Positions 38,936-53,902 of a stretch of DNA of 64,000 nucleotides are shown here, piece by piece. Where the stretch lies: the NCBI GenBank assembly GCA_965223795.1, contig CBDCXL010000002.1:2436030-2500029 (forward strand). Reading direction: 5' to 3'. Both the position numbers and the translations under genes were made by a program. The notes below the pieces were generated by a model. It did no database searches and was not told the DNA's origin. It worked only from the letters and a program-made list of their open reading frames with translations. The DNA is from Nitrospinales bacterium. GTDB lineage: Bacteria > Nitrospinota > Nitrospinia > Nitrospinales > VA-1. Each line of letters opens with the position of its first letter. Position 1 is the first letter of the stretch.

Positions 38936-39868
38936 ATGAAAACGCAAATAAAATCGGCGTATCTTGCAAGCGAGGGGTTTGAGGCGGCGCTGGTCCAGGA
39001 GCTTTCCGGCGGGGTGACGGTGCACGGGCGGCTGGTGCTCTCGGACCGCGCGGCGCAGCCGGTCTGCTGGGCGCAGAATGTGTGGCTGAATCCGGAAACG
39101 ATCGCCATCGACTCGATCTCCGACGCGGCGAAAAAGCTGAAGGCGCGGCAGCGCAACTGGTGCCTGTATTCGTATCAACTGCACCGGCGCGCGGCGCTGA
39201 TCGAAGAAAAACTGCCGCACGTTTCGGGAAAGGCGCTGCATTTTCCCGCGCCGCTGCCCGCCTCGCCGCTCGGGTCCTGGACGCTGCTGGACGCGGACAC
39301 GCTGCTGGCGGCGGGCGAGTGCTCCAGCCTGTTTCCCAACGGCGCGCTGCGTTTTGCCGAGGACAAGGATGGGCCGCCCAATCGGGCGTATCTAAAACTG
39401 TGGGAAGCGTGGACGCTGCTTCAGCGCCATCCGGAGCCGGGCGCTTTCTGCATCGACGCGGGCGCGAGCCCCGGCGGCTGGACCTGGGCCGCGGCGAAGC
39501 TGGGCGCGAACGTGCTGAGCGTGGACCGCGCGCCGCTGGATGCATCGCTATCCGGTCTCGACAACGTGACGTTTCGCAAGGGGGACGCGTTTGCGCTCAA
39601 GCCTGAGGATTTTTCCGGCCGGAACGTGGACTGGCTGTTGTGCGATGTGGTGTGCTACCCGGACAAGCTGTGGCAGTGGCTTGAGGCCTGGATCGCATCG
39701 GGGCTGTGCCGCAGCGTCGTGTGCACGATCAAGTTTCAGGGCGAAGGCGAATACGGGATCGTTGAGCGGTTTCAAAGTGTGCCGGGCAGCCGGGTGGTGC
39801 ATCTTTTTCACAACCGGCACGAACTGACGTTTCTGCTGCAGGAAGAGGGAATCACCCGTCCAGGGTGA
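38936..39868 (+). CDS. rlmM: RlmM-like 23S rRNA 2'-O-ribose (C2498) methyltransferase
   Basis: 310 aa. It reads PNRAYLKLWEAW, has the SAM motif CIDAGASPGGWT, then SVDRAPL and WLLCDVVCYPDK...VCTIKFQG, collinear with E. coli RlmM as I remember it. Confidence 0.78.
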   Translation: MKTQIKSAYLASEGFEAALVQELSGGVTVHGRLVLSDRAAQPVCWAQNVWLNPETIAIDSISDAAKKLKARQRNWCLYSYQLHRRAALIEEKLPHVSGKALHFPAPLPASPLGSWTLLDADTLLAAGECSSLFPNGALRFAEDKDGPPNRAYLKLWEAWTLLQRHPEPGAFCIDAGASPGGWTWAAAKLGANVLSVDRAPLDASLSGLDNVTFRKGDAFALKPEDFSGRNVDWLLCDVVCYPDKLWQWLEAWIASGLCRSVVCTIKFQGEGEYGIVERFQSVPGSRVVHLFHNRHELTFLLQEEGITRPG

Positions 39869-41126
39869 GGTCGGTCTTGGGCACGGAGATGCAGGTCAGG
39901 CAGGAGCGCGCTTCCGGCTTGCTGCCCGGTTCGACGACGTAGCTCACCAGGCCGCGCTTGATCGCGGTGAGGCAGGTGCCGCAGTTGCCGGCGCGGCAGC
40001 CGGACTCGAGCTGGATGCCGTTCTCCTCGGCGAAGGCGAGGATGGAGCCGGCGGCGGGGTTCCACTGCAGGGTTTTCTGGGAGCGGGCGAAGGTGACCTT
40101 GAGCGACGATTCGGTCGCGGGGTCGCCAGCTGTCAGTTTCTTGATGGTGACGGAGTTGAACGCTTCGTAGTGAATGTTTTTCTCGGACACCCCCCACTGC
40201 TCCAGATCCTGGCGCAGGGTCTCGATCATTTTCGGCGGCGCGCAGATGTAAAAGTCGAAATTGTTCGAGGGCAGCACCTCTTTCAACAGGCTGCCGGAAA
40301 TATGGCCTTCGTGATGGTAATCCTTCCCTTTCGCATCCTCGGCGCGCGGCCGGCTGTAACAGACGTTCAATTTTACATTGGGGTGGTTGCGGGCCACGTT
40401 TTCCAGGTGCTCTTTCATCATGTGCTCGGAACGGTTGCGCACTCCGAGAAAAAACCAGGTCTCTCTTTTGGACACGGCGCCGCGGGCGTCTTTTTCCGTG
40501 ATGGTGTTGAGCATGCTGAGCACCGGCGTGATGCCGACGCCGCCGCCGATGAGCACCACGGGACTGGTGCTGGCCATGTCGAGGTAGAAATGACCGCTGG
40601 GTGCCTTGACGTCGACGATGTCGCGTTCGTTGAGCATGTCGTGAAAGAAATTGGAGCCGAGCCCCGGCGGCGCGCTGTTGTTTTCGGGCGGCAGCAGGCG
40701 CTTGATGGTGACGCGGTAGTAATCCGGGTGGTTGGGGCTGTCCGACAGGGAATAGCAGCGGATCACCGGCTTCGGGTTGCCGGGAATGTTGAGTTTGAAG
40801 GTCAGGTACTGGCCGGGCTGAAACGGCGGCAGCGGTTTGCCGTCGTGCGGCGACAGGTAGAACGAGGAAACCTGATCGGTTTCCTTGACCTTGAGCACGA
40901 TCTGGAATTTGCGGAATCCGTTCCAGATCACGTTTTCGCTGCGCGAGTCCATGCGGATCCTGTCGACGATCTGGTCCACACGGGCGCGCAGCAGATCCGC
41001 TTCCAGTTCGCTGCTCCGCCGGGAAATTTTAAAGAAACGGAAATTGTTGCTGATCAGCTGGATGAGGTAGGCCATGAGGGCCAGAAGAAACGCGATAGCC
41101 GCAAGACTGATTGCAGCGTTGAGCAA
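39852..41126 (-). CDS. membrane-anchored FNR-like oxidoreductase (FAD-binding FR-type + NAD(P)-binding + C-terminal plant-type 2Fe-2S ferredoxin)
   Basis: 424 aa with an N-terminal helix (AISLAAIAFLLALMAYLI). It has RCYSLSD (RxYS FAD motif), LIGGGVGITPVLSML, and the C-terminal CRAGNCGTC...CLTC. It converges on rlmM with a 17-nt overlap. Confidence 0.9.
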   Translation of the reverse strand: MLNAAISLAAIAFLLALMAYLIQLISNNFRFFKISRRSSELEADLLRARVDQIVDRIRMDSRSENVIWNGFRKFQIVLKVKETDQVSSFYLSPHDGKPLPPFQPGQYLTFKLNIPGNPKPVIRCYSLSDSPNHPDYYRVTIKRLLPPENNSAPPGLGSNFFHDMLNERDIVDVKAPSGHFYLDMASTSPVVLIGGGVGITPVLSMLNTITEKDARGAVSKRETWFFLGVRNRSEHMMKEHLENVARNHPNVKLNVCYSRPRAEDAKGKDYHHEGHISGSLLKEVLPSNNFDFYICAPPKMIETLRQDLEQWGVSEKNIHYEAFNSVTIKKLTAGDPATESSLKVTFARSQKTLQWNPAAGSILAFAEENGIQLESGCRAGNCGTCLTAIKRGLVSYVVEPGSKPEARSCLTCISVPKTDLTLDG

Positions 41127-41205
41127 GGAGCCTCCTTAGAGAGTGTCGGACGCAATGTCACTATATTATAAACAAGGGCGTCGGAGATTCAGAACGAAAA
41201 AGTGA

Positions 41206-41733
41206 CTACGGGTCGTTGCGGGCCAGCAGCATTTCTTTTTTGAAGCCCGGTTTGTGGTGGTAAACGTGACACAGCTGACAGTCTTCTCTCACTTTTCCTT
41301 CCGAATGACATTCGAGGCAGGTTTTGCGTGTGATGGCGGAGAAGTTGCTTTTGAACACGGCCGGGTCGAACGAATCGAACGCGCCGAGGAAATCGGCCTT
41401 GGGATCGAGGACGTGGCAGTTCTTGCAGGTGTCGCCTTTGCCGAGCAGGTCGAGGTGGTTTTTATGGGAATATTTCAGGTAGGCGCGGTTGCGCGCGCCC
41501 TTGTAGCCCCAGTCGATGGTGAGCTGGCCGGGGTTTTCCGCGTCCGGTATGGCGGAAACCGCATGGCACTTGATGCAGCCGCCCACGCCTTCCTTTGAAG
41601 AGAGCATCAGGTCGCGCATCGCCTCGGCGCGTTCGCGCTTGTCGGGATCGGTCTCGGTGGCGGCGACGGTGAGCGCGAACTCGATCCAGCTTTGCGCCAC
41701 CGGGTCCTCATGGCCGGAGGGGGTGTAGCGCAC
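41206..41733 (-). CDS. multihaem cytochrome c, C-terminal part (4 CxxCH) of a frameshift-interrupted decahaem gene
   Basis: It contains CIKCH, CKNCH, CLECH and CQLCH. In this frame the reading frame stays open upstream to 41786 and reads SPAEASFGGWHADLLEVRYTPSG, joining the upstream ORF at the C5 run (plus-strand G-run 41776-41780). Confidence 0.85.
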   Translation of the reverse strand: MRYTPSGHEDPVAQSWIEFALTVAATETDPDKRERAEAMRDLMLSSKEGVGGCIKCHAVSAIPDAENPGQLTIDWGYKGARNRAYLKYSHKNHLDLLGKGDTCKNCHVLDPKADFLGAFDSFDPAVFKSNFSAITRKTCLECHSEGKVREDCQLCHVYHHKPGFKKEMLLARNDP

Positions 41734-43094
41734 TTCCAGAAGGTCCGCGTGCCAGCCGCCGAAACTGGCTTCCGCGGGGGATCGTATTCGACGTTGAGCC
41801 CCCAGGCGCAGGCCGCGCGTTTGAGTACTTCCGGGTTCAATCCCGCGAGCATTTTCTCGGCCACGGGTACGGGAGAATGCTCGTTGATCAGATCCGCGAT
41901 CGGCATCGTGCTTTCGACGGCGAGGTTGAGGATGAGGTCCTGCAGGCTTTCGCTGTAGCTTTCCGGATCGTCCTCGGGCACGTTCAAAAGATAGGCGCTG
42001 ATCAGGCTCGGCGATTCGGTGGAGATGCTGACGAATTCATCATCCTCTTCCTCAATCTTTTCGCCCCGGGTCCGCGGTAACCGGCAGGCTTCCTTCAGCT
42101 CTTCAACATCGATGCGGTTTCTGTCCAGTTCGGGCAGGCGCATGAGGACCAGCTCCTTGCGCGGAATCTGAAATTCGTGGCAGGAGGCGCAGACCCCTTC
42201 GAATTTGTCCGGGCTGACGATCTGCTCTTCCTGGGTCACTTTGTGGCAGACCATGCAGTCCTTGGGCGAGCGGTCTTCGAATTTGGGATCGACAAAGTAT
42301 TTATTCCAGTGCGAGATGTGGTCGAACTTGATCGTGTTCTTGCGGGTGTGCGGGTAGTTCTCCGGAAATTCCGGGTGCCCTTCGGTGAAGCTTTTGAACT
42401 GCTCTTCGTGACAGTGGTTGCACTGGGTGTTGTTGAAGGTGCGGATGGCCAGCCCGGGGCCGCGGTGCTCGCGGTGGCACATCAGGCAGTCGGTTTTCTG
42501 CAGCCGGGGAAACTGTCCGCGGTCGCCGTTGTGGGCGACGAGGGCCGGGCCGCCGAACAGGTGGCAGTCTTCGCATTTGGCGGAGATGTTGCCGGTGTGC
42601 AGCACCGATTTCAGCCACAGCACGGACTTGAGATTGTGGGTGGCGTGGCAGATTTCGCAGCCTTTGTTCTCGGCGAATTTGACGTGCGCGCTCGACATCG
42701 GGCCGGGATTGAAGCTCACGTGCCGGTGCTGCGCCTGGTCCACCACCCAGGAAAGGCAGAGCAAGGACACGATGGTGCCGAATGCGAGCAGGATCAGCCG
42801 GGCCCGGTAGACGCGCAGCGTGGCTTTGGGGACGCAGGGCGGGTGCCGCTGGGAGCACATCCCCTGGGGCAGCGGACCGTCGCCGCAGGGCCCGCCCGCC
42901 GCCTGGGGGCGGCTGCATTCCCAGTGGTTGCCTTTCAGCGTCGGCGCGCATTCGGCGGTGCCGCCGCAGGCGCCGTCGATGTCGGGGCCCTGATGGCAGG
43001 GTTTGAGCCAGAGCGCACCGCGGCCGCAGCGGTAGGGGAAATTCGGCCGTTCGTACTTGCTGCGGTTGTGCGCGAATTTTTTCTCATCCATCAT
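41607..43094 (-). CDS. multihaem cytochrome c, N-terminal part (6 CxxCH) with a Cys-rich cytoplasmic N-terminus and one TM helix; interrupted by a frameshift
   Basis: It contains CEICH, CEDCH, CLMCH, CNHCH, CMVCH and CASCH. The ATG at 43094 overlaps the upstream stop (ATGA). The last roughly 60 residues of the ORF (RKPVSAAGTRTFWKCATPPPAMRTRW...) look out of frame. Confidence 0.85.
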   Translation of the reverse strand: MMDEKKFAHNRSKYERPNFPYRCGRGALWLKPCHQGPDIDGACGGTAECAPTLKGNHWECSRPQAAGGPCGDGPLPQGMCSQRHPPCVPKATLRVYRARLILLAFGTIVSLLCLSWVVDQAQHRHVSFNPGPMSSAHVKFAENKGCEICHATHNLKSVLWLKSVLHTGNISAKCEDCHLFGGPALVAHNGDRGQFPRLQKTDCLMCHREHRGPGLAIRTFNNTQCNHCHEEQFKSFTEGHPEFPENYPHTRKNTIKFDHISHWNKYFVDPKFEDRSPKDCMVCHKVTQEEQIVSPDKFEGVCASCHEFQIPRKELVLMRLPELDRNRIDVEELKEACRLPRTRGEKIEEEDDEFVSISTESPSLISAYLLNVPEDDPESYSESLQDLILNLAVESTMPIADLINEHSPVPVAEKMLAGLNPEVLKRAACAWGLNVEYDPPRKPVSAAGTRTFWKCATPPPAMRTRWRKAGSSSRSPSPPPRPIPTSANAPRRCAT

Positions 43095-43894
43095 AACAGG
43101 TAGACGTGCACCACGACCATGTGCCACAGGATCACGGTCATGAGGGCGGTGGCCAGCGGAATGTGGATCATCAGCCAGCTTTTCAAAACCGTCTGCAGCG
43201 CGTAGTGCAGATCGATCTTGCGCTTAGTATCGGCCAGCGTGAACAGTTTTCTCAGGTAGCCGCGTTCCTGCACGTTGAGAAATTTTTCCAGGGTGGAAAA
43301 CTGCTGCCGCACCCAGAATTCGCCCTTGTGGCCGCCGAACAGGTAGCTGGTGAAAAACCGCGGCCGCTGGAAAAACCAGTGCAGCGATTCCAGGTAATGG
43401 GTCGCCAGGGTGTCGCGCCCGGTCTCGTGGGTGCAGGCGAGCAGTAGGTCCTTGGCCTTTTTACGCAGCTCGCTGATTTCCGCCGGGATGCGTTCGTAGA
43501 TGCACTCGAAGCCGCTCTGGGTCAGGCGGCTCGGGTAGATTTTCTGGATCAGGGTGCCGACGATGCCGGAGAGGGCGGAGGCGTAGAACAAGAACGCCAG
43601 GATCTGTTCGTACAATCCGTCGGGCCACAGCGTGCCGATGTGCAGCCAGAAAATGCCGATCGCCAGGAAGCCGCCCACGGTGTGGATGTTCAGCCAGTTC
43701 GAGGACGGCGAGAGCGGTAAAAACGGCAGCCGCTTGCGCAGATGAAACAGGGCCAGCACGATCAGGATGGAGAACAGGGTCCAGCCGGTGAGCGGCGAGG
43801 TGAACTCAAGCTGCTCATCCGCCTGGCTGGTGCGGTAGGTCATGAACACCAGAAATACGCTTGCGAAGATCCACAGGGCCCAGGATTTCACCAT
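43091..43894 (-). CDS. integral membrane protein with two His-x13-His helices (putative dihaem b-type electron-transfer subunit)
   Basis: ATG at 43894 (MVKSWALW...), AGGA upstream, 267 aa, about 5 TM helices. His71/His85 lie in NIHTVGGFLAIGIFWLHI and His244/His258 in MIHIPLATALMTVILWHM. Confidence 0.75.
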   Translation of the reverse strand: MVKSWALWIFASVFLVFMTYRTSQADEQLEFTSPLTGWTLFSILIVLALFHLRKRLPFLPLSPSSNWLNIHTVGGFLAIGIFWLHIGTLWPDGLYEQILAFLFYASALSGIVGTLIQKIYPSRLTQSGFECIYERIPAEISELRKKAKDLLLACTHETGRDTLATHYLESLHWFFQRPRFFTSYLFGGHKGEFWVRQQFSTLEKFLNVQERGYLRKLFTLADTKRKIDLHYALQTVLKSWLMIHIPLATALMTVILWHMVVVHVYLL

Positions 43895-43902
43895 CGAATG
43901 TC

Positions 43903-45618
43903 CTATCGGTCTATGCTTCCCTCGGGCCGCACGTGACGGAAATCGACCCGCTGCAGAGCTTCGTGAGAGCAGGCCTGCACGCAGGCGGGACCGGACAGTT
44001 GGCCGACGCAAAGATCGCACTTGGTCGCCTTGAGGATCGGCTTGCGCGTTTCGGCGTCGAGGATGGGTTTGCCTTTCTTGTCATTGATCTCCACCATGCG
44101 AATGTTCGAGTAGGGGCAGGAATTGGCGCAGGTCTCGCATCCGATGCAGGTGTCGTCGTTGATCACCACCGTCCCTTCGGAAAGGGTGCGGTGGATGGCT
44201 CCGGTGGGGCAGCCGATCAGGCAAACGGGATCGACACAATGCATGCAGGCGTTGGCCACCATCCAGCGGCCGAAGGTCTTGCCGTGCCGGATGAACCGGG
44301 GGTTGCCCTCATGCGCCGAGGCGCAGGCGTTGACGCAGTCGTCGCAGCGGACGCAGCGGTCCAGGTTGATCAGCATGGCCTGGGTGCCGTTGATGAACCG
44401 CTCCTGCACGGTCCATTCTACCAGAGCTTCGTCCGCCATGGTCTGTTTAAATAGATCGGTCATGCGCCTGTGGTTGCCGGTGGGCCTGTCGCTTGCGTGG
44501 CGGGTTCCGTGATGGATGGTCTCCCAATAGGGAAAGACGTATTTTTCCAGGATCTTCGCCGGGATCTGCAAAACATCTACGTAACCTAAAGCCGAGATCG
44601 ACACCTTGTAGGAGACATCCTTTTCCCCTTTCCAGGCGAGGTACAACTCATCGGCGCCGTAGAAATTGCCCATCCCCAGGTAGGTGAGGGTGTGGTCGCC
44701 GTCTTCCCGCTTGACCGAAACGCGGGCGAACCCGGCCCTGACCAGCAACAGGTCGTCGGGGTAATCGCCCTGCTTGGCGATCAGCGGCTCGTGCTGGATC
44801 CCCGCTTTGCCCATGTTGCGCAGGTTCTTGTAGGAAACCGTCCAGTCGTAGGTGCCGTAGGATTGGAAGCCGGTGTTCTGCGCCACATCGCGGAGCGCTT
44901 CTTCATCGAGATGCTCGAACAGCGAGATCTTGCGCAGAAAGGAAATGAGCGCGTTCTGGCTGTAGCGCTTTTCGATCATGCGGCGCCAGTTCTCGTCGTG
45001 TTTGCGCAGCTCGCGCAGTCCCTGCCAGCGGATTTCCAGCAGCTCGGAGTAGGTTTCGGAGAAGATCGTCGCGGTGCGCGGAATGCGCCCGAGCGCCGCC
45101 AGCTCGCCGAACAGATCGCCGGTTTCCAGGATCGCGGTCTTGTTGGCGTCGAGCACCGCGGGAATGTCCTGTAAAAACACGTGGCTTTGCGTCACGTCGC
45201 CGTTGGTGTGGATCGCCTGCTGGGTGTAGCGGGACGGGTCGCGCACTTCCGGGATCTTGCGGTTGGTGAACAGCTGCGACAGGGCTTCGAGCACGCTTTT
45301 GCGCGGCGTTTTCTTGCGGCCCAGAAGGTCGCTCGGCAGACCGGGAGACAGCACCACGCGCAGCCGGCCGTTGAGCGCGAGAAACGCGGAGTTGCCGTAG
45401 TCGCCCTCGCGGATCACGATGTCGCCGGGCTTGAATCGGACGATGCGGGTGTCGTTTTTGAGGATCCCCTCGAGCGGCGTGTCCGGCGGAAAGCGGTCCT
45501 TCTCGATCGCGGCGATCTCCGGAACCGCGAGCAGTTTCTGCACGTCGTATTCCGTCATTTCAGGACCGAAGGGGTTGTTCCACCGGTCCGGCTGTGAAAT
45601 TTGCGTGACGACTTCCAC
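43903..45618 (-). CDS. fusion protein: two cyclic-nucleotide-binding domains + four-cluster [4Fe-4S] ferredoxin (NrfC/DmsB/HybA-like)
   Basis: 571 aa with no signal peptide. The cNMP signature is GDLFGELAALGRIPRTATI, and there is a second beta-roll region. The Fe-S motifs are CVRCDDCVNAC, CMHCVDPVCLIGCP, CIGCETCANSCP and CDLCVGQLSGPACVQAC. Confidence 0.9.
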   Translation of the reverse strand: MEVVTQISQPDRWNNPFGPEMTEYDVQKLLAVPEIAAIEKDRFPPDTPLEGILKNDTRIVRFKPGDIVIREGDYGNSAFLALNGRLRVVLSPGLPSDLLGRKKTPRKSVLEALSQLFTNRKIPEVRDPSRYTQQAIHTNGDVTQSHVFLQDIPAVLDANKTAILETGDLFGELAALGRIPRTATIFSETYSELLEIRWQGLRELRKHDENWRRMIEKRYSQNALISFLRKISLFEHLDEEALRDVAQNTGFQSYGTYDWTVSYKNLRNMGKAGIQHEPLIAKQGDYPDDLLLVRAGFARVSVKREDGDHTLTYLGMGNFYGADELYLAWKGEKDVSYKVSISALGYVDVLQIPAKILEKYVFPYWETIHHGTRHASDRPTGNHRRMTDLFKQTMADEALVEWTVQERFINGTQAMLINLDRCVRCDDCVNACASAHEGNPRFIRHGKTFGRWMVANACMHCVDPVCLIGCPTGAIHRTLSEGTVVINDDTCIGCETCANSCPYSNIRMVEINDKKGKPILDAETRKPILKATKCDLCVGQLSGPACVQACSHEALQRVDFRHVRPEGSIDR

Positions 45619-45717
45619 GGTCGATGCCGCTCCTGTCAGTTTGGGTAACGATTCAATTTCTGCACCGTCTCAAGGCGCAGAACCACCCCACGCGCCTTGG
45701 CGCCTGTTTCGCTGCGG

Positions 45718-46701
45718 TTATTTGTAGTCGTCCTTTTTCGGCAGCAGCTTGCCCACCGCTTTGGACAAATCCTTGCCCTTGATGGCGGCCACCAGCTTGC
45801 GGGCGTTCTGATCGGTCGGTTTGGCGATCAGGGCCTGGGCCTCGGGTATGCCTTTCAGATGCGCCAGGGCGGCCTTGGCGTCCGCCACGCGCTTCTGCTG
45901 GGCCTGCACGTATTTTTCGTTGTCCGAGCGGGTCAGCACCGAGTTGGCCGACACCAGCTTGGCGGCCTGGCCGATGACGAAAAACTCGGCCAGCTCCTGG
46001 GGCGTCATCTCGGCGTTCACCTTCACGTTCGGCTCGTAGTAGCGGTGGCGCACCGTGCCCTGCGAGTACTTGACGATCTCGAAGTCCGGATTGATGGGAT
46101 GATCGGCCTCCAGCATCTTCGCCAGAAGCTCGGGCTTGAGATCGGGATTGGCCAGCCCGTGGCAGAACATGCAGTTGGCGGCGACGTCGTATTTCATGGT
46201 CGGCCAGATGAGACCGGCTTCGGTGGATTTTTTGATGCGCATCGCCTTGTGCTCGGGCGTCTCCTGATCTTTCTCCACATCTTTGCCGCCGTAATTGTCG
46301 TGAATCTCCAGGTAATCGGAGGAGGGCCCGTGGCAGCTTTCGCAGGACGTCCCCGATTTGGCCTTGGGTTTGTCACCGGCATCCTTCTGCACCATGGTGT
46401 AATGGCACAGGGTGCAGGTTTCGTTCTTCTTCATGTTTTTCGACCCGCCCACCGCCTTGAGGATCTTTTTCGGGGAGGGTTTCTTTTTTTCCTTGTTGTC
46501 CTTGGGTTCCCGGTGCGCGTCGCGGAAGGATTCGAAGTGCCGGGTTCCCTTCCAGACTTTGTATTCGGCTTCATGACATTCCGTGCAGACCTTCACCCCT
46601 TTGAAAAAGGGTTTGGCCGAAGCCGAAGACGCAAACAGGCAAACCAGAACAGAAAATAGCGCGATGAAAGAAAGTCGTGATGGACTCTTGATTGATTTCA
46701 T
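45718..46701 (-). CDS. periplasmic tetrahaem cytochrome c
   Basis: 327 aa with signal peptide ...VLVCLFASSASA. It contains CTECH, CTLCH, CESCH and CMFCH. The first motif context, CTECHEAEYKVWKGTRHF, is typical of cytochrome c554/NrfB-like multihaem proteins. Confidence 0.9.
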   Translation of the reverse strand: MKSIKSPSRLSFIALFSVLVCLFASSASAKPFFKGVKVCTECHEAEYKVWKGTRHFESFRDAHREPKDNKEKKKPSPKKILKAVGGSKNMKKNETCTLCHYTMVQKDAGDKPKAKSGTSCESCHGPSSDYLEIHDNYGGKDVEKDQETPEHKAMRIKKSTEAGLIWPTMKYDVAANCMFCHGLANPDLKPELLAKMLEADHPINPDFEIVKYSQGTVRHRYYEPNVKVNAEMTPQELAEFFVIGQAAKLVSANSVLTRSDNEKYVQAQQKRVADAKAALAHLKGIPEAQALIAKPTDQNARKLVAAIKGKDLSKAVGKLLPKKDDYK

Positions 46702-46919
46702 GATTTCAAGCGATTGAATTGAGCGTTTTTGCGAGTTTTGGGATCAGGATCGTCGTTTGCGGGCGGCCGCCGGGATTCCCCTATGTGCTGCCCAAATAGC
46801 GTTTTCGGTCATTCCGTACTCAAAGTTCCTAAAAAACCGCTGAAATGACAAGTGATTTTTCCAGAAATATAAGCAATTTCAGATTCGTATTTGTACTAAT
46901 TTTGACCCCAGACACAAGA

Positions 46920-46934
46920 GCAGAAAAAGTGCCA
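46920..46934 (-). promoter_or_regulatory. sigma-54-type -24/-12 promoter candidate for the minus-strand cytochrome operon
   Basis: The minus strand reads TGGCAC-TTTTT-CTGCT, with GG and GC separated by 10 nt. It lies about 220 nt upstream of the ATG at 46701. Confidence 0.35.
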
Positions 46935-47923
46935 AAAAGTGGGATACCGGCGAAAAAATTTTATTCGTGGTAAATCAATCGTTTTTAAAAGCGAGTTAAA
47001 ATAATTATAGAAAATTTGTTTAAAATCGAATAAATAAGTATCAAACGTTGTCAATGAATACAATGGATAAATGCTCCCATCACAAAGGCGTAAAGCGATT
47101 CCAGCCGAGCCTTTGACCTTTTTAAAACCCGGAAAGTGAAACAAAACCGATGCCAGCATTCTGAGATCCGTCCTGTGTGTGGACGAGCATACGACGGTGT
47201 TGGCTGGGTCGACAGTCACTGTATGAAATTAAAGACAATCCGGAAATGAATTGCTGAATTTGTGCCACGAAGGATGAAGTCCGCTTCGATTCCCTCGGTT
47301 TTCTTGCCGGCAGCAAAGAAAACACAGTTTGTTCTTTAAATTTCAATGGGTGACCCTATTCTAGCATCCTTTTTCCGTGAAACCTATCCCGCTGGTTGTG
47401 TTTTAGGTCACAGTCCGTTATTGCATTGATTCATTTCGATGCCAGCCGGGCTGCGTTCATAAATTTACATCTATGGTTAATTTATATGGGGGTTTGCAAT
47501 ATTGTGCGTTGATTCGGGGATGAAACTCTATATAAACCAATTATTTGATTTGTAGTTATCGAAAATTTGGGTAAATGAGTATAAATTCGTTATCATCGTT
47601 AAAAATGGGATAATTATCACAAAATTAACGGTGGGAATGGTTCCTGGATTGAGCTAGAATCAGAAAAGTTGATAAATAAAAATAAATTGCTACCTTCAGT
47701 GTAATTTTTCATGGCCTTCAAGTTGATGAATTCTAACTTCAACCTGATGGCTGTGGGGGAAATCTATGTTTTTCGTTCGTGAAGTGTGCGGCTATCCGGA
47801 CAGAAAAAATATTGCTAAGATTTTTAGATTTCTGGTTAAAAAAATATAAATATATTGAAGGTTTGGTTGCCAAGAATTGATGGAAAGGTTTGATAAGCCA
47901 CGACTTTAAATTTCAATTGATTC

Positions 47924-47938
47924 TGGCCTGTGTTTTGC
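47924..47938 (+). promoter_or_regulatory. sigma-54-type -24/-12 promoter candidate for the plus-strand cytochrome/porin pair
   Basis: TGGCCT-GTGTT-TTGCT, with GG (47925-47926) and GC (47937-47938) separated by 10 nt. It lies about 115 nt upstream of the ATG at 48055. Confidence 0.3.
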
Positions 47939-48054
47939 TTTGTTTTCATTATGGATACCGGAAACAAGGTAACGGCGGGGACGGGCGTTTCGCCGGTTTT
48001 GCCTTAAGGTCATAAAACAGAATCAAAGGGATGTTTTTTTGGGGAGAAAGAAAC

Positions 48055-50070
48055 ATGACCGGACAGAACAATACGATGCATTGCAGGTCTTTCATTTTTC
48101 GTGTGGCCAGCGCCGTGTGCCTGGCAGCGTTCGCCAGTGTCGCGCTGATTTCCTGTCAGACTCCGCTGATGGAAGCGGATAAGGACAAAATGGCGAACGC
48201 CGCGCTTGCCGATGGCGAAAAGAAGATGGATGGCGGGAAAATGATGGCGGACAAGATGTCCGACGGTGAAAAAATGGCCGAAGGGTCCGCAGACTCCGGA
48301 AAAATGATGGCGAAAAAGGTGATGGCGGACAAGAAAATGATGAAAGGCGAGGGCGATGCCTGGGAGGACAAGAAGGACGGCGGGAAAAAAGCCGAAACGC
48401 TTGAGGATGCGTTCGCGCAGCATGAAGCGCTGTTCGCGGAAAACCGCTATCCTTCCGCGGCCACCTGCCGGACCTGTCACCCGAAACACTATAAGGAATG
48501 GTCGGTGTCTCAGCATTCCTATGCTCAGATCAGTCCGGTCTACCTGTCTCTCAACAACAAGATCAATCAGTTGACCCAGGGCACCATGGGTGATTTCTGT
48601 CTGCGCTGTCACAGCCCGGTGGGCGCCAACCTGGGAGAATCTCCGTATCAGTCGAACCTCACCCGGCACCCGACCTCGCGCGAGGGCATCACCTGCGTGG
48701 TGTGTCACCGGCTGAACTTGGCCTACAACAAGGTCAGCGGCCGGCTGGCGCTGGAAGAGGGCGACCTGCTCACTCCGGTGTTCGGACCGACGGGCAATAA
48801 AGAGCTTTCCCGCGTTCTCGACAACAAGGACAAATACCGGGTGGTCACCAAGAAGGAAGGCAAGGGCCGCAAGATCCACACCCAGGCCAAGCAGTTCGCC
48901 GGCATCACCACGCCGACGTTCTGCGGTTCCTGTCACGACGTGACGCTGTTCAACGGTTTCCGGCTGGAGGAGGCGTTCAGTGAATACCGGCTGTCTCCCG
49001 CGGCCAAGAAGGGCGTGACCTGTCAGGACTGCCACATGGGCAAGATCCAGGGCATCCCCTCCGGTTACGAGCACGGGCCCGCGGCGGTCGTGGGCGGCAA
49101 GAAAACCAAGCCGCGCAAGATCACCAGCCACTTTTTCGCCGGTCCCGACTACTCCGTCGTGCATCCGGGCATTTTCCCGCACAATTCCGACGCCCAGGAA
49201 ATGGCGACGCTGGAAGAGTGGATCCAGTTCGACTGGAAGGCGGGCTGGGGCACCGATGATTTCGAGGACAACGTTTCCGAGGATCACAAATTCCCCGATC
49301 GCTGGCGTTCGGCGACGGACCGTTACGACGCCAGGGAGATCATCGAGTATCAGCTCAAGCGGCTGGAGCTCATCAAGGAAAAACGGATGGAAGTCCTGCG
49401 CAACGGGTTTCATCTCGGCAGCATCATGACCGAGAAAGCCGATAAGGACGGCATCCGCTTCAAAGTTCAGGTGAAAAACGCCACCGACGGCCACAACGTT
49501 CCCACCGGGTTCACCGGCGAACGGCTTGTGTGGCTGCACGTGATGGTGAAAGACAGCGACGGCACCGTGATCTTCCAGTCCGGCGACCTCGATCCCAACG
49601 GCGATCTGCGGGACCAGGAATCCTCCTACGTGCACAACGGCGAGGCCCCGCTGGATCACCAGCTGTTCAATCTGCAATCGCGATTTGTCGTCGATAACCT
49701 CAGGGGCGGCGAGCGCGAGCGCGTCATTCCCATTCCTTACCCCCAGACCGCGATCCCGTTTGTGCGGCCTTCCATTCAGTCTCTCATCCTGAGTGGCGAG
49801 CCGACTACGGAGCGCAACCACCGGAAAGGCATCGAGCCTTTGGGGCATCGCTGGGCCGAGTACAAGATCGACAAGGAAGCTCTCACCGGCAAGGGCCCCT
49901 ACATGGCTCACATCGAGCTCAAAATGGCTATGGTTCCCGCCAACCTGGTGGAAGCGATCCAGGATGTGGGATTTGATTTTCACATGACCCCCAGAGAAGT
50001 GGGCGACGCGGTGGCCGCAGGTCATGCGGTGCTCTGGGAAAGAGAAGTCGAGATCAGCGTGATCGAATAG
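48055..50070 (+). CDS. lipoprotein pentahaem cytochrome c with Met/Lys-rich linker
   Basis: The ATG at 48055 follows GGGGAGAAAG. The signal ends in the lipobox VALISC. It contains CRTCH, CLRCH, CVVCH, CGSCH and CQDCH. The C-terminal roughly 250 aa carry no haem motif (ATDGHNVPTGFTGERLVWLHV...). Confidence 0.9.
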   Translation: MTGQNNTMHCRSFIFRVASAVCLAAFASVALISCQTPLMEADKDKMANAALADGEKKMDGGKMMADKMSDGEKMAEGSADSGKMMAKKVMADKKMMKGEGDAWEDKKDGGKKAETLEDAFAQHEALFAENRYPSAATCRTCHPKHYKEWSVSQHSYAQISPVYLSLNNKINQLTQGTMGDFCLRCHSPVGANLGESPYQSNLTRHPTSREGITCVVCHRLNLAYNKVSGRLALEEGDLLTPVFGPTGNKELSRVLDNKDKYRVVTKKEGKGRKIHTQAKQFAGITTPTFCGSCHDVTLFNGFRLEEAFSEYRLSPAAKKGVTCQDCHMGKIQGIPSGYEHGPAAVVGGKKTKPRKITSHFFAGPDYSVVHPGIFPHNSDAQEMATLEEWIQFDWKAGWGTDDFEDNVSEDHKFPDRWRSATDRYDAREIIEYQLKRLELIKEKRMEVLRNGFHLGSIMTEKADKDGIRFKVQVKNATDGHNVPTGFTGERLVWLHVMVKDSDGTVIFQSGDLDPNGDLRDQESSYVHNGEAPLDHQLFNLQSRFVVDNLRGGERERVIPIPYPQTAIPFVRPSIQSLILSGEPTTERNHRKGIEPLGHRWAEYKIDKEALTGKGPYMAHIELKMAMVPANLVEAIQDVGFDFHMTPREVGDAVAAGHAVLWEREVEISVIE

Positions 50071-50133
50071 ATTCCTTTAAGCAAATCAAGGGTCTATCAC
50101 TCACAAACGTCAACGTACTGGGGGACGCAACGC

Positions 50134-51567
50134 ATGAGGTACGCCAAGCTGGAACGGGAATTTCTCTCAAAAACGGTTGCGGCGGCGATCCTGTGGCTCA
50201 TGATCGCCGCTCCGCAGGCGGCCCAGGCGGATAGCTGGTTCTCCGCGATCGGTGAAAAATCCGAGGTCAGCCGGCTTTCGGACGAGCAGATTCCGTTCGC
50301 CGGCGTGGAAGGCCTGCCGCCGCGGCCGGGACTGATCTGGGAGTTCGGCGACAATTTCCTCGACTCGGGGAACCTGTACTCCGGCTTCGAGCTGCCCACC
50401 GGAGCGGTGTGGCAGCCGCGCCTCTGGCTGTTCGCCACGCTGCGCAGCGCGGTGCAGACCTTTGACGACGGCGTCAACGACCGCAGCTCGGAATGGGTCA
50501 ACCGGCTGGATCTGTTCGCCAATCTGCAGCTCACCGGCACGGAAAAGCTGGTGTTCGGCATCCGTCCGTTCGACCGCAACCGTCCCGACCGGTTCTCCGG
50601 CTACCAGTTCGAACCCGACAACGACGACGGTTTTCAGGAAGATCTCAACGCGGACATCCGCACCTTCTTTTTCGAGGGCGATCTGGGAAGCCTGTTTCCC
50701 AATCTGGACCGGCACGGGTTCACGGCGCTCGACTACGGCTTTTCGGTGGGGCGCCAGCCGCTGCTGTTTCAGGAAGGCATCCTGATCAACGACACGGTGG
50801 ACGCGCTCGGGCTGGTGCGCAACAACATCCGCCTGCCGGGGGTGTCCAACCTCCGGGTGTCGTTCGTCTGGGGCTGGAACGAGTTGGGGCGCAGCGACGC
50901 GGTTCTGAGGGACACCACGCAGATGTTCGGGCTGTTCAACTCGGCGGACCTGAACGTCAGCACCGTCAACCTCGACATGGCCTATGTGCGCGACACCAAC
51001 CCCAACGGGCAGGACAGCTTCAACATCGGCCTCTCCTCGACCCAGCGCATCGGCCATTTGAACACCACATTCCGCGTCAACAGCTCGATCGCCGAGGACG
51101 GCGACACGCTGGCCGCTGCGGACGGGACGCTTATATCCGCGGAACTCTCCTGGACTCCCGAATCGTCCGACGACATCGTGTACCTGAACACATTTTATAC
51201 CATTGAGAACTACACCCAGGTGGGAAGGGAACCGGTCGTCGGTGGACCGCTGGGAACGCTGGGCATTCTGTTCGCCTCGCCCAGCATCGGCAACTTCCTC
51301 GCCGAACTCAATCCCTTTGCCAATGAAGTTGCCGGCGGCGCGCTCGGCTACCAGGCTTTCTGGGACAACCACAAGCGCAACCTGATTCTGGAAATCGCCG
51401 GACGCCAGGACACGAGCGGTGACAACAACTCTGATTTCGCTGTCGGTTTTCAGGTGCAGCAGCAGATCCATCAGCGCATTCAGCTGCAGCTCGACGGCCA
51501 CTACGCCATTCAGGAAGGCCGCGACAACGGCTACGGCGGACGCACGGAAATCCTGATCCAGTTCTGA
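50134..51567 (+). CDS. outer-membrane beta-barrel protein (porin-like)
   Basis: 477 aa with signal peptide ...LWLMIAAPQAAQA. It has many short amphipathic strands rich in G, Y, F, N and D, and the C-terminal signature GGRTEILIQF ends in Phe. Confidence 0.8.
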   Translation: MRYAKLEREFLSKTVAAAILWLMIAAPQAAQADSWFSAIGEKSEVSRLSDEQIPFAGVEGLPPRPGLIWEFGDNFLDSGNLYSGFELPTGAVWQPRLWLFATLRSAVQTFDDGVNDRSSEWVNRLDLFANLQLTGTEKLVFGIRPFDRNRPDRFSGYQFEPDNDDGFQEDLNADIRTFFFEGDLGSLFPNLDRHGFTALDYGFSVGRQPLLFQEGILINDTVDALGLVRNNIRLPGVSNLRVSFVWGWNELGRSDAVLRDTTQMFGLFNSADLNVSTVNLDMAYVRDTNPNGQDSFNIGLSSTQRIGHLNTTFRVNSSIAEDGDTLAAADGTLISAELSWTPESSDDIVYLNTFYTIENYTQVGREPVVGGPLGTLGILFASPSIGNFLAELNPFANEVAGGALGYQAFWDNHKRNLILEIAGRQDTSGDNNSDFAVGFQVQQQIHQRIQLQLDGHYAIQEGRDNGYGGRTEILIQF

Positions 51568-52786: not shown

Positions 52787-53902
52787 ATGGGAAAAATTCA
52801 ACTGCGTCCATCTCTTTCCGAGAAAGACACCGAGATTCTTGAGTCCATCGTCTCTCGACTGCAAGTCGCAGAGACGCGCGTTGCGCTCAAGGAAGTGGTG
52901 GCTTCACACATTCTGCCGCTCTTGAAAGCCGACTCGGCGCTGTACGCGTGGACCGATTCGAACCTCCTGCAACCGCAACTCATCGACTGCATTCACATTC
53001 CGGAAAAAGAGATTCCGGCGATCAAAAAATTCGTCTGCCAGGACCCGATGGCGGGTTACCTGTTGACGCACGAGTCGCCGGTGGTGGCGCGGGATGTCGG
53101 GTTGAACAACGGCAGCAAGCCCGCGACGGATCTGTTTTCGAAAGGAAAGTCCCGCATCAAAAAGGGATACAGTTATTTCAGCCTGAGCCGCTCCGAAGTC
53201 ATCACGCTGGCGCTGCGCGATCTCAACCTGGGCGCGGGTTTCCACCGCAAGCTGTCGGCGGGAAAACCCTGGACGGTGCGCGATGTGCGTCTGATGGAGC
53301 TGATCCGCCCGCACCTTTTGATGTGCATCAAGTCGATCGTGCTGAAGGAAGAGCTGGCCAAGCACCAGTCCATCGTCGAGATCCTGGCGGATTCGCCGAC
53401 AGCGATCGCGCTTGTGGATGAGGACATGCAGATCACTTACAGCAACCGCACCTGGAACGAATCGCTGGTCTACGAATCCGGGCAGAAACTGCCACAGGAT
53501 CTGACGGTGCTGCTGTTGAAAGAAAGGTACAAAACCGATTCCATGCTGGACCTCGAACCGGCGGGCGAGGAGGCGGCGAATTTCCGTTTCGGGGACCAGG
53601 ATTATCAATTGAGTTTCACGCCGGTCCGGCATCACGCCACCGGCGTCAACGGGACCTGGCTTTTGCAGCTCAAACCGGCGATCGAGCCCGATTCCAAGCT
53701 CGACGACCTGATGCGCAAGGCGGGTCTGACGCGCCGGGAGCGGGAAGCCTGCGGCCTGATCCGTCAGGGAATCGAGCTGGACGAAATCGCGAAACAGCTT
53801 TTTATCAGCCCGCACACGGTGCGGACGCATCTGAAGCGGATCCATCAGAAACTGGGTGTCCACACGCGGGCCCAGCTCATGGCCGCACTGAACCCGCGCT
53901 GA
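52787..53902 (+). CDS. LuxR/FixJ-type HTH transcriptional regulator with an uncharacterised N-terminal sensory region
   Basis: 371 aa. The C-terminus LTRREREACGLIRQGIELDEIAKQLFISPHTVRTHLKRIHQKLGVHTRAQL is a GerE/LuxR HTH. Confidence 0.88.
   Translation: MGKIQLRPSLSEKDTEILESIVSRLQVAETRVALKEVVASHILPLLKADSALYAWTDSNLLQPQLIDCIHIPEKEIPAIKKFVCQDPMAGYLLTHESPVVARDVGLNNGSKPATDLFSKGKSRIKKGYSYFSLSRSEVITLALRDLNLGAGFHRKLSAGKPWTVRDVRLMELIRPHLLMCIKSIVLKEELAKHQSIVEILADSPTAIALVDEDMQITYSNRTWNESLVYESGQKLPQDLTVLLLKERYKTDSMLDLEPAGEEAANFRFGDQDYQLSFTPVRHHATGVNGTWLLQLKPAIEPDSKLDDLMRKAGLTRREREACGLIRQGIELDEIAKQLFISPHTVRTHLKRIHQKLGVHTRAQLMAALNPR

What the first reader, a model, noticed from the sequence alone, without database searches (positions are those of the whole stretch)
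41600..41800. A 1-nt frameshift in a C5/G5 homopolymer splits a decahaem cytochrome c gene
On the minus strand the upstream frame reads ...GLNVEYDPP and then runs into implausible sequence (RKPVSAAGTRTFWKCATPPPAMRTRW...). The other frame, read from the same point, gives AEASFGGWHADLLEVRYTPSGHEDPV..., which continues into the 4-haem ORF 41206..41733.

The switch coincides with GATCCCCCGCGG (plus-strand G-run at 41776-41780). One additional C would fuse the two parts into a roughly 629-aa protein with 10 CxxCH motifs.

Possible explanations are a homopolymer sequencing or assembly error, a recent inactivating mutation, or phase-variable or programmed frameshifting.
Basis: seen in the sequence. 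Interest (0 to 1): 0.55.

Follow-up and report, generated by a model that had tools for sequence, protein, structure and literature searches.

The report
One-base deletion splits decahaem cytochrome gene
A conserved ten-haem cytochrome gene (ptdG) of a Nitrospinales genome is cut in two by one missing base; this is most likely a consensus sequencing error, or else a very recent disabling mutation, so the finding is ordinary.

Summary
On the minus strand the cytochrome gene at 43094..41206 changes reading frame at the C5 run (plus-strand G5, 41776-41780). Adding one base gives a 629-aa protein with 10 CxxCH motifs.

This is one gene with a single missing base. It is not two genes and not a programmed frameshift. 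More than 100 orthologue clusters are single proteins of about 625-650 aa. All 75 genomic loci that carry the junction motif read through it in one frame. The deletion hits the third base of a Pro codon that is invariant in the 28-sequence alignment. It is the only gap in the gene that is not a multiple of three.

dN/dS is the same on both sides of the break (0.120 and 0.125), so the lesion is very recent or not real. No other gene in the 64-kb window is split.

The gene is the decahaem ptdG of the already described ptdABCDEFG cluster, whose function is unknown.

My estimates are about 0.65 for an assembly indel in a long-read MAG, 0.28 for a genuine recent mutation, and 0.04 or less for recoding or phase variation. 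Only raw reads or resequencing can decide. Interest is low.

The parts
41776..43094 (-). ptdG 5' part in the upstream frame. It encodes residues 1-439 plus the first two bases of Pro440. It comprises an N-terminal Cys-rich region, one TM helix, six CxxCH motifs and the first half of the non-haem middle domain.
   Evidence: tblastn of the L001 orthologue covers residues 1-440 at window 43091..41775 in frame -3. The codon-usage segment runs 41769-43094.
41773..41783 (-). Junction, minus strand GAT CCC CC|GCG. One base is missing from the third position of the second Pro codon (Pro440, invariant in alignment A1). The plus-strand G5 run is at 41776-41780.
   Evidence: The DNA alignment reads window GATCCCCC-GCGGAA against L001 GATCCTCCGGCGGAA and L002 GAGCGTCCTGCGGAA, and this is the only non-multiple-of-3 gap in the gene. 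P440 is invariant in 28 sequences. All 75 orthologous loci with the motif read through in frame.
41206..41775 (-). ptdG 3' part in the downstream frame. It encodes residues 441-629, that is the second half of the middle domain and four CxxCH motifs. The first possible start codon in this frame is GTG at 41733. There is no signal peptide.
   Evidence: tblastn of the L001 orthologue covers residues 418-629 at 41844..41209 in frame -2. Codon-usage score is +19.9 in this frame. dN/dS against L001 is 0.125.
41607..41775 (-). Out-of-frame tail of the upstream frame as called in the public record (P0001, 495 aa): 55 non-native residues RKPVSAAG...RRCAT and then a stop.
   Evidence: Codon-usage score is -15.1 in this frame.
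43091..43894 (-). ptdF-like membrane protein of 267 aa, intact. Its stop overlaps the ptdG start.
   Evidence: 94% aa identity, full length and a single frame against L001. No Pfam or NCBIfam hit. Its role is named.
43903..45618 (-). ptdE-like protein with cyclic-nucleotide-binding domains and a 4Fe-4S dicluster, intact.
   Evidence: Pfam cNMP_binding 4.8e-22 plus Fer4 families. 93% identity, full length, against L001.
45718..46701 (-). ptdD-like tetrahaem cytochrome (c554-like), intact.
   Evidence: Pfam Cytochrome_C554 2.3e-13. Four CxxCH motifs. 83% identity, full length, against L001.
39852..41126 (-). ptdC-like FAD/NAD(P)-binding oxidoreductase with a C-terminal 2Fe-2S domain, intact, directly downstream of ptdG.
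   Evidence: Pfam NAD_binding_1, FAD_binding_6 and Fer2. NCBIfam match to the reductase part of flavohaemoprotein, 4e-75. 89% identity, full length, against L001.
48031..50070 (+). ptdA-like pentahaem cytochrome, divergently transcribed, intact.
   Evidence: Five CxxCH motifs. Pfam cytochrome families. 88% identity, full length, against L001.
50134..51567 (+). ptdB-like protein of 477 aa (the putative porin of the cluster).
   Evidence: It sits directly after ptdA. No Pfam hit. The assignment rests on gene order only, as described.

Best explanation
The minus-strand gene 43094..41206 is a single gene. It is the decahaem c-type cytochrome ptdG of a complete ptd (penta/tetra/deca-haem) cluster in a Nitrospinales genome. 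In the deposited sequence one base is missing from the third position of the Pro440 codon, at the C5 run followed by G. Gene callers therefore report a 495-aa product with a 55-residue nonsense tail and a separate C-terminal fragment.

I consider it most likely that the missing base is a consensus (assembly) indel error in a long-read metagenome-assembled chromosome. On that reading the organism makes the normal 629-aa protein.

Shown: the deletion, its exact position, the one-gene status, and the lack of any decay on either side of the break. Inferred: that the cause is technical rather than biological.
For: One gene:
- More than 100 orthologue clusters are single proteins of about 625-650 aa.
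- 75 of 75 genomic loci with the junction motif read through it in one frame.
- The nearest relative, P0122/L001, encodes exactly the repaired junction, DPPAEASFGGW.
- A 1-nt gap is the only frame-breaking difference in 1.9 kb.
- The break lies in the most conserved stretch of the family, where C429, W431, N434, E436, Y437, P440, G446, G447 and W448 are invariant.
- It also lies inside the only confidently modelled domain, residues about 360-510 with pLDDT 84-93.

No decay:
- dN/dS against L001 is 0.120 upstream and 0.125 downstream. The restored 189 codons contain no stop or second indel.
- All six neighbouring ptd genes and the other syntenic genes are intact, full length and in a single frame.

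Technical origin (inference):
- The public copy sits on a single 3,250,952-bp contig of an uncultured lineage.
- The sister genome is a MAG whose contig is named ctg321976_9x_l. From memory, not a tool result, this looks like a metaMDBG/nanoMDBG-style name indicating 9x coverage.
- Long-read metagenome assemblers leave about 4 indels per 100 kb on a mock community (PMC13087279), and bins below 40x need polishing (PMC9262707). One frameshift in 64 kb matches that background.
- Many annotated bacterial pseudogenes are assembly artefacts (PMC11017572).
Against: No reads, coverage figure or platform information for this record could be obtained. The technical origin is therefore an inference from base rates.

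The tract is short (C5/C6 or GG). Modern long-read consensus usually resolves homopolymers shorter than about 10 bases. The window contains 237 coding homopolymers of 5 bases or more, 64 of them 6 or more, and none of the others is broken. There is thus no sign of a systematic homopolymer problem.

A genuine, very recent mutation would produce exactly the same sequence picture.
Confidence: 0.65

Rival explanations
1. The deletion is real. It is a very recent loss-of-function mutation, or a variant captured in the consensus of the sampled population. The cell would make a membrane-anchored 6-haem fragment with a nonsense tail. It would lose the 4-haem C-terminal part, because that fragment has no signal peptide or anchor and could not reach the periplasmic haem-attachment machinery. 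This would disable ptdG and probably the whole Ptd chain.
For: The sequence as deposited carries the deletion. Slipped-strand deletions at short runs are a common natural mutation. One broken gene among about 50 is also within the normal pseudogene load of bacterial genomes. The rest of the window shows no evidence of a poor assembly. The downstream frame has no start codon before GTG 41733, and the fragment has no hydrophobic N-terminus.
Against: dN/dS is equal and low on both sides (0.120 and 0.125) and there is no secondary lesion, so the event would have to be extremely recent. The gene is kept intact in every other genome examined. All its operon partners in this genome are intact. The hit falls on an invariant codon in the most conserved segment, where such an allele should be removed quickly in a large free-living population.
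Confidence: 0.28
2. The frameshift is biologically used. Either a programmed -1 ribosomal frameshift (tRNA-Pro slipping from CCG back onto CCC) yields full-length PtdG together with a shorter 6-haem isoform, or the C tract acts as a phase-variation switch through slipped-strand mispairing.
For: A -1 slip of the P-site tRNA-Pro at CCC CCG would give D-P-P-A-E, identical to the orthologue sequence (direct reading). A hairpin can be drawn immediately after the run.
Against: Programmed shifts are conserved among orthologues, but here 0 of 75 loci and none of the full-length orthologue proteins are shifted.

The site is not an X XXY YYZ heptamer (U CCC CCG). The downstream fold is not significant (z = -1.45; 24 of 200 shuffles fold at least as well). 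It starts 0-1 nt after the run, and it is ordinary coding sequence identical in the unshifted relative. There is no zero-frame stop near the site; the tail runs 55 codons. No Rfam element was found.

From general knowledge, a 5-6-nt tract is below the length at which phase-variable tracts operate. G/C runs of 5 occur 60 times in the window.
Confidence: 0.04
3. The two ORFs are two genuine, separately translated genes: a 6-haem gene and a 4-haem gene.
For: Both frames are open, and a public annotation calls two products, P0001 (495 aa) and P0121 (137 aa).
Against: No orthologue is organised this way. Coding signal in the downstream frame begins 30 nt upstream of its first possible start codon. 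The upstream frame's last 55 codons score as non-coding. The downstream fragment lacks any export signal, which haem attachment needs. The break bisects a single confidently modelled domain.
Confidence: 0.01

Closest known systems
PtdG, the periplasmic decahaem protein of the ptdABCDEFG cluster (Elbon, Stewart & Glass, bioRxiv 10.1101/2023.11.21.568154)
   Same: It has ten CxxCH motifs. It sits in the same gene set: pentahaem PtdA, PtdB, tetrahaem PtdD, cNMP/4Fe-4S PtdE, membrane PtdF, decahaem PtdG and FAD/NAD PtdC. The order D-E-F-G-C matches that listed for a Nitrospina MAG in the paper's supplementary table. Full-length homologues occur in the same groups, marine Alphaproteobacteria and Nitrospinota.
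   Different: In this record the gene is interrupted by a 1-nt deletion. Separately, the alignment shows an N-terminal region with 8 invariant Cys ahead of a TM helix, which the preprint's label 'periplasmic' does not mention. The function of the family is unknown.
Gene-fragmenting indel errors in long-read (metagenome) assemblies
   Same: A single-base deletion at a short run in an otherwise intact, highly conserved gene on a megabase-scale MAG contig. The frequency, 1 in 64 kb, falls within published residual indel rates.
   Different: The tract is shorter than the homopolymers that usually cause trouble. The platform and coverage of this record are unknown.
Programmed -1 ribosomal frameshifting (for example dnaX, copA, IS elements) and homopolymer phase variation
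   Same: A -1 shift at a run of identical bases would restore the full-length protein.
   Different: The shift is not conserved among orthologues. There is no canonical slippery heptamer, no significant stimulatory structure at the right spacing and no nearby zero-frame stop. The tract is much shorter than contingency-locus tracts.

Membership tests
PtdG (decahaem cytochrome of the ptd cluster) | Ten CxxCH haem-binding motifs in one polypeptide | tested here: met
   There are 10 motifs after repair of the 1-nt deletion, 6 upstream and 4 downstream. All ten Cys/His positions are invariant in 28 orthologues. As deposited, the motifs are split over two frames.
PtdG (decahaem cytochrome of the ptd cluster) | Located in a cluster with pentahaem PtdA, PtdB, FAD/NAD PtdC, tetrahaem PtdD, cNMP + 4Fe-4S PtdE and membrane PtdF | tested here: met
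   All partners are present around 39852-51567, with haem counts of 5 and 4 and the expected domains. The order D-E-F-G-C is as in the paper's Nitrospina entry. PtdB and PtdF are assigned by position only, because they have no Pfam hit.
PtdG (decahaem cytochrome of the ptd cluster) | Sequence homology to the reference PtdG proteins listed by the authors | not tested
   I did not compare directly with the accession numbers in the paper's table. Indirect support comes from full-length homologues (about 40-50% identity) in Saanich Inlet Nitrospina and Rhodospirillaceae/Alphaproteobacteria MAGs of the kind listed there.
Programmed -1 ribosomal frameshift site | Frameshift conserved in orthologous genes | tested here: not met
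   0 of 75 orthologous loci are shifted at this site. The orthologous proteins are full length.
Programmed -1 ribosomal frameshift site | Slippery heptamer X XXY YYZ with a stimulatory structure 5-9 nt downstream | tested here: not met
   The site is U CCC CCG. The downstream fold has z = -1.45, begins immediately after the run, and is the same sequence as in the unshifted relative.
Phase-variable homopolymer (contingency) locus | Long tract (typically 7-8 or more G/C) whose length varies between close relatives or reads | tested here: not met
   The tract is 5 nt here. The closest relative has CCTCCG, with no tract at all. 60 G/C 5-mers occur in the window. Variation among reads was not testable.
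Assembly or sequencing indel artefact | Disagreement between the consensus and the underlying reads or an independent sequence of the same strain | not testable with these tools
   The source record and reads were not retrievable. No same-species DNA was found in the metagenome collection.
Old (decaying) pseudogene | Relaxed selection and additional lesions downstream of the first disruption | tested here: not met
   dN/dS is 0.125 downstream against 0.120 upstream, with no further stop or indel.

The most novel reading that the evidence does not exclude
The C5 sequence is real, and the cell makes both a 6-haem truncated PtdG and, by low-level -1 slippage of tRNA-Pro at CCC CCG, some full-length decahaem PtdG. 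That would be a lineage-specific recoding or regulatory split of a multihaem electron-transfer protein.
Probability: 0.03. Interest if true: 0.5.

Novelty: already known. Interest (0 to 1): 0.1.

Why it matters
The finding matters mainly for annotation. The two ORFs, which the public record calls as 495-aa and 137-aa proteins, should be treated as one 629-aa ptdG. The site should be flagged for read-level checking.

If the deletion is real, this Nitrospinales population has just lost a component of the Ptd multihaem system, whose function is still unknown. That would hint weakly that the system is dispensable under some conditions. Neither outcome opens a new question.

The Ptd system is the more interesting object here. 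It is a conserved seven-gene set with haem, Fe-S and flavin components, found in marine nitrite oxidisers and Alphaproteobacteria and of unknown function. It is not the subject of this finding, and it has already been described.

Tried and rejected
- Retrieving the source record or reads. An exact-protein look-up of P0001 and of the neighbouring 424-aa protein found nothing. The genome-collection scan did not return the window's own genome.
- Looking for the same population elsewhere. An exact DNA pattern that allowed either allele (0 or 1 extra base) found nothing in the JGI metagenome contigs. A protein-seeded scan of the same collection found no relative.
- Recoding signals. The RNA fold downstream of the run was not significant. 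Rfam gave no hit anywhere in the window. The promoter/terminator scan gave nothing informative: 0 promoter-like sites, and terminator-like sites at chance level.
- Searching for other split genes as a measure of assembly quality. I used an unsupervised codon-usage segmentation, a Pfam comparison of five adjacent same-strand ORF pairs and tblastn of 13 genes of the sister genome. None found another split gene, so there is no evidence of a generally error-ridden assembly.
- Sequence search of solved structures with the family profile gave only marginal cytochrome c3 hits. NCBIfam has no model for this family.
- The AlphaFold2 model was too poor overall (mean pLDDT 56.7) to justify a fold search, so I did not run one.

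Full report
**Observation.**
The minus strand between 43094 and 41206 carries a cytochrome gene whose reading frame changes at the run GATCCCCCGCGG (plus-strand G5 at 41776-41780). The upstream frame reads ...AACAWGLNVEYDPP and then 55 residues of low-complexity sequence (RKPVSAAGTRTFWKC...) up to a stop at 41607. The frame shifted by one base reads AEASFGGWHADLLEVRYTPSGHEDPV... and runs to the stop at 41206. Inserting one base after the C run gives a 629-aa protein with ten CxxCH motifs, six before the junction and four after it.

**The frame switch is real coding behaviour.**
I trained a codon-usage model on the long ORFs of the window.
- The 55 codons after the run score -15.1 in the upstream frame and +19.9 in the downstream frame.
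- The 57 codons before the run score +17.9 and -32.6 in the same two frames.
- An unsupervised segmentation of the whole window places the change of coding frame at 41763/41769.
- In the downstream frame the coding signal starts 30 nt before the first possible start codon, GTG at 41733.

**It is one gene.**
- A search with the repaired protein returned 172 proteins. The best 120 are almost all single polypeptides of about 625-650 aa covering 97-100% of the query. They come mostly from Nitrospinota, and also from Alphaproteobacteria and other MAGs.
- The public copy of the window's own gene is called as a 495-aa product (P0001) and a 137-aa fragment (P0121), both on a 3,250,952-bp contig.
- The same 90% cluster contains a 629-aa protein (P0122) from a different 3.37-Mb contig, labelled MAG, Nitrospinales bacterium.
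- At DNA level the window reads GATCCCCC-GCGGAA. The relative L001 reads GATCCTCCGGCGGAA, and a 68%-identical orthologue, L002, reads GAGCGTCCTGCGGAA. This 1-nt gap is the only gap in the 1.9-kb gene that is not a multiple of three.
- Among 80 genomic loci fetched from species-representative genomes, all 75 that contain the CxW..N.EY motif read through the site in one frame.
- The junction lies in the most conserved stretch of the family. C429, W431, N434, E436, Y437, P440, G446, G447 and W448 are invariant in 28 sequences, and the damaged codon is the invariant P440.
- An AlphaFold2 model is poor overall (mean pLDDT 56.7). That is as expected for a multihaem protein modelled without cofactors and from a shallow alignment. 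It is confident for residues about 360-510 (pLDDT 84-93). This is a non-haem middle domain, and the junction at 439/440 cuts it in half.

**Which base is missing.**
The lost base is the third position of the P440 codon. Orthologues use CCG (34), CCT (16), CCC (9) and CCA (7) at this position. The nearest relative has CCG, and L005 and L008 have CCC CCG G... The ancestral sequence may therefore have been C6 (loss of a C) or CCCCCGG (loss of a G). The homopolymer explanation is plausible but not proven. Runs of 5 or more identical bases cover only 3.3% of the window, so the position is unlikely to be random with respect to such runs. However, 237 runs of this kind lie in coding sequence and no other one is associated with a frame break.

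**Age of the lesion.**
Nei-Gojobori estimates against L001 give dN/dS of 0.120 for the 438 codons upstream and 0.125 for the 189 codons downstream. In the restored frame there is no further stop or indel. The downstream part has therefore evolved under the same purifying selection as the rest. The deletion is either evolutionarily instantaneous or absent from the organism.

**Context and assembly quality.**
- tblastn of 13 genes of the sister locus against the window shows full-length, single-frame matches for all genes except this one. This gene splits into frame -3 (residues 1-440, down to 41775) and frame -2 (residues 418-629, from 41844).
- Pfam comparison of five other adjacent same-strand ORF pairs found unrelated families in each pair, so none is a split gene.
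- This is therefore the only broken gene found in 64 kb (about 50 genes).

**What the gene is.**
Pfam and NCBIfam recognise only generic multihaem signatures, and there is no solved homologue. The literature search turned up a preprint that describes this gene set as the ptdABCDEFG cluster (bioRxiv 10.1101/2023.11.21.568154). Its components are:
- pentahaem PtdA;
- porin PtdB;
- FAD/NAD(P) oxidoreductase PtdC;
- tetrahaem PtdD;
- PtdE, with cNMP-binding domains and two 4Fe-4S clusters;
- ferric-reductase-like membrane protein PtdF;
- decahaem PtdG.

The function of the cluster is stated to be completely unknown. The preprint's supplementary table lists a Saanich Inlet Nitrospina MAG with the accession order A, B, D, E, F, G, C, which is the order found here.

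The window holds the complete set:
- ptdA at 48031-50070 (+), with 5 CxxCH;
- ptdB at 50134-51567 (+);
- on the minus strand, ptdD at 45718-46701, with 4 CxxCH;
- ptdE at 43903-45618;
- ptdF at 43091-43894;
- ptdG at 41206-43094;
- ptdC at 39852-41126.

**Rival mechanisms.**
*Programmed -1 frameshifting.* This would give the native sequence, because a tRNA-Pro slipping from CCG to CCC is followed by GCG. The case against it is strong:
- the site is not an X XXY YYZ heptamer;
- the downstream fold is not significant (z = -1.45);
- the fold begins directly after the run, and it is the same conserved coding sequence present in the unshifted relative;
- there is no nearby zero-frame stop;
- no orthologue is shifted.

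*Phase variation.* This is unlikely for a 5-6-nt tract that is not even present in the closest relative.

*Two independently expressed genes.* This is contradicted by the absence of such an arrangement anywhere else and by the coding signal upstream of the first start codon. It is also contradicted by the lack of any export signal on the C-terminal fragment. The fragment needs export because c-type haem attachment takes place in the periplasm (established knowledge).

**Artefact or real mutation.**
The sequence alone cannot decide. I favour an artefact, at about 0.65, for these reasons.
- The gene is universally intact in relatives. It is under strong constraint, and all its operon partners in this genome are intact.
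- The record is a single 3.25-Mb contig of an uncultured lineage.
- The sister genome's contig is named ctg321976_9x_l. From memory, not a tool result, this looks like a metaMDBG/nanoMDBG-style name that encodes 9x coverage.
- Published residual indel rates for such assemblies are about 4 per 100 kb on a mock community (PMC13087279), and bins below 40x need polishing (PMC9262707). These rates predict roughly one to two frameshifts in a window of this size.
- A large survey concluded that many annotated bacterial pseudogenes are assembly errors (PMC11017572).

Three points count against an artefact. The tract is short. No other error is visible in the window. I could not obtain the reads, the coverage or the platform, nor any second sequence of the same population. 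A genuine, very recent mutation therefore keeps about 0.28.

**Verdict.**
The thing itself is ordinary: a single-base indel in a member of an already described, though functionally uncharacterised, cytochrome family. For annotation, the two ORFs should be merged into one 629-aa ptdG and the site flagged for read-level verification.

Noticed in passing
window 39852-51567: The window holds a complete ptd cluster: ptdA and ptdB on the plus strand, and ptdD-E-F-G-C on the minus strand. This is the gene set described by Elbon et al. (bioRxiv 10.1101/2023.11.21.568154), whose function is unknown. It is conserved in synteny with the sister Nitrospinales MAG (L001) and with a Nitrospinaceae MAG (L002).
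   Followed up: partly
window 42810-43094 (-), PtdG residues 1-95: Ahead of the single TM helix (about residues 97-119) PtdG has a region of about 90 aa with eight invariant cysteines (C23, C33, C43, C49, C60, C70, C80, C87 in alignment A1) and no signal peptide. This suggests a cytoplasmic metal- or Fe-S-binding domain on a protein the preprint calls simply periplasmic. AlphaFold2 confidence in this region is low.
   Followed up: no
window 46702-48015: A 1.3-kb AT-rich spacer (39% GC against 57% for the window), free of ORFs, separates the divergent ptdD... and ptdA... genes. Three blocks are 72-80% identical to the equivalent spacer of L001. There is no Rfam hit. It is probably a large regulatory region.
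   Followed up: partly
window 52787-53902 (+): A LuxR/GerE-type transcription regulator (GerE 8e-15, with a weak PAS-like signal) lies about 1.2 kb downstream of ptdB. It is a candidate regulator of the cluster.
   Followed up: no
window 39852-41126 (-): The PtdC-like protein matches the reductase half of NO-inducible flavohaemoprotein Hmp (4e-75) but has no globin domain. Instead it has an N-terminal hydrophobic segment and a C-terminal 2Fe-2S ferredoxin domain.
   Followed up: no
L001 (ENA ERZ25072999, contig ctg321976_9x_l; the same contig as CBDCWG010000012.1 in L003): The closest relative, at 85% nucleotide identity over ptdG, is a 3.37-Mb MAG contig whose name appears to encode 9x coverage. 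The window's own genome was not returned by any collection search, so its organism name and sequencing platform remain unknown.
   Followed up: partly
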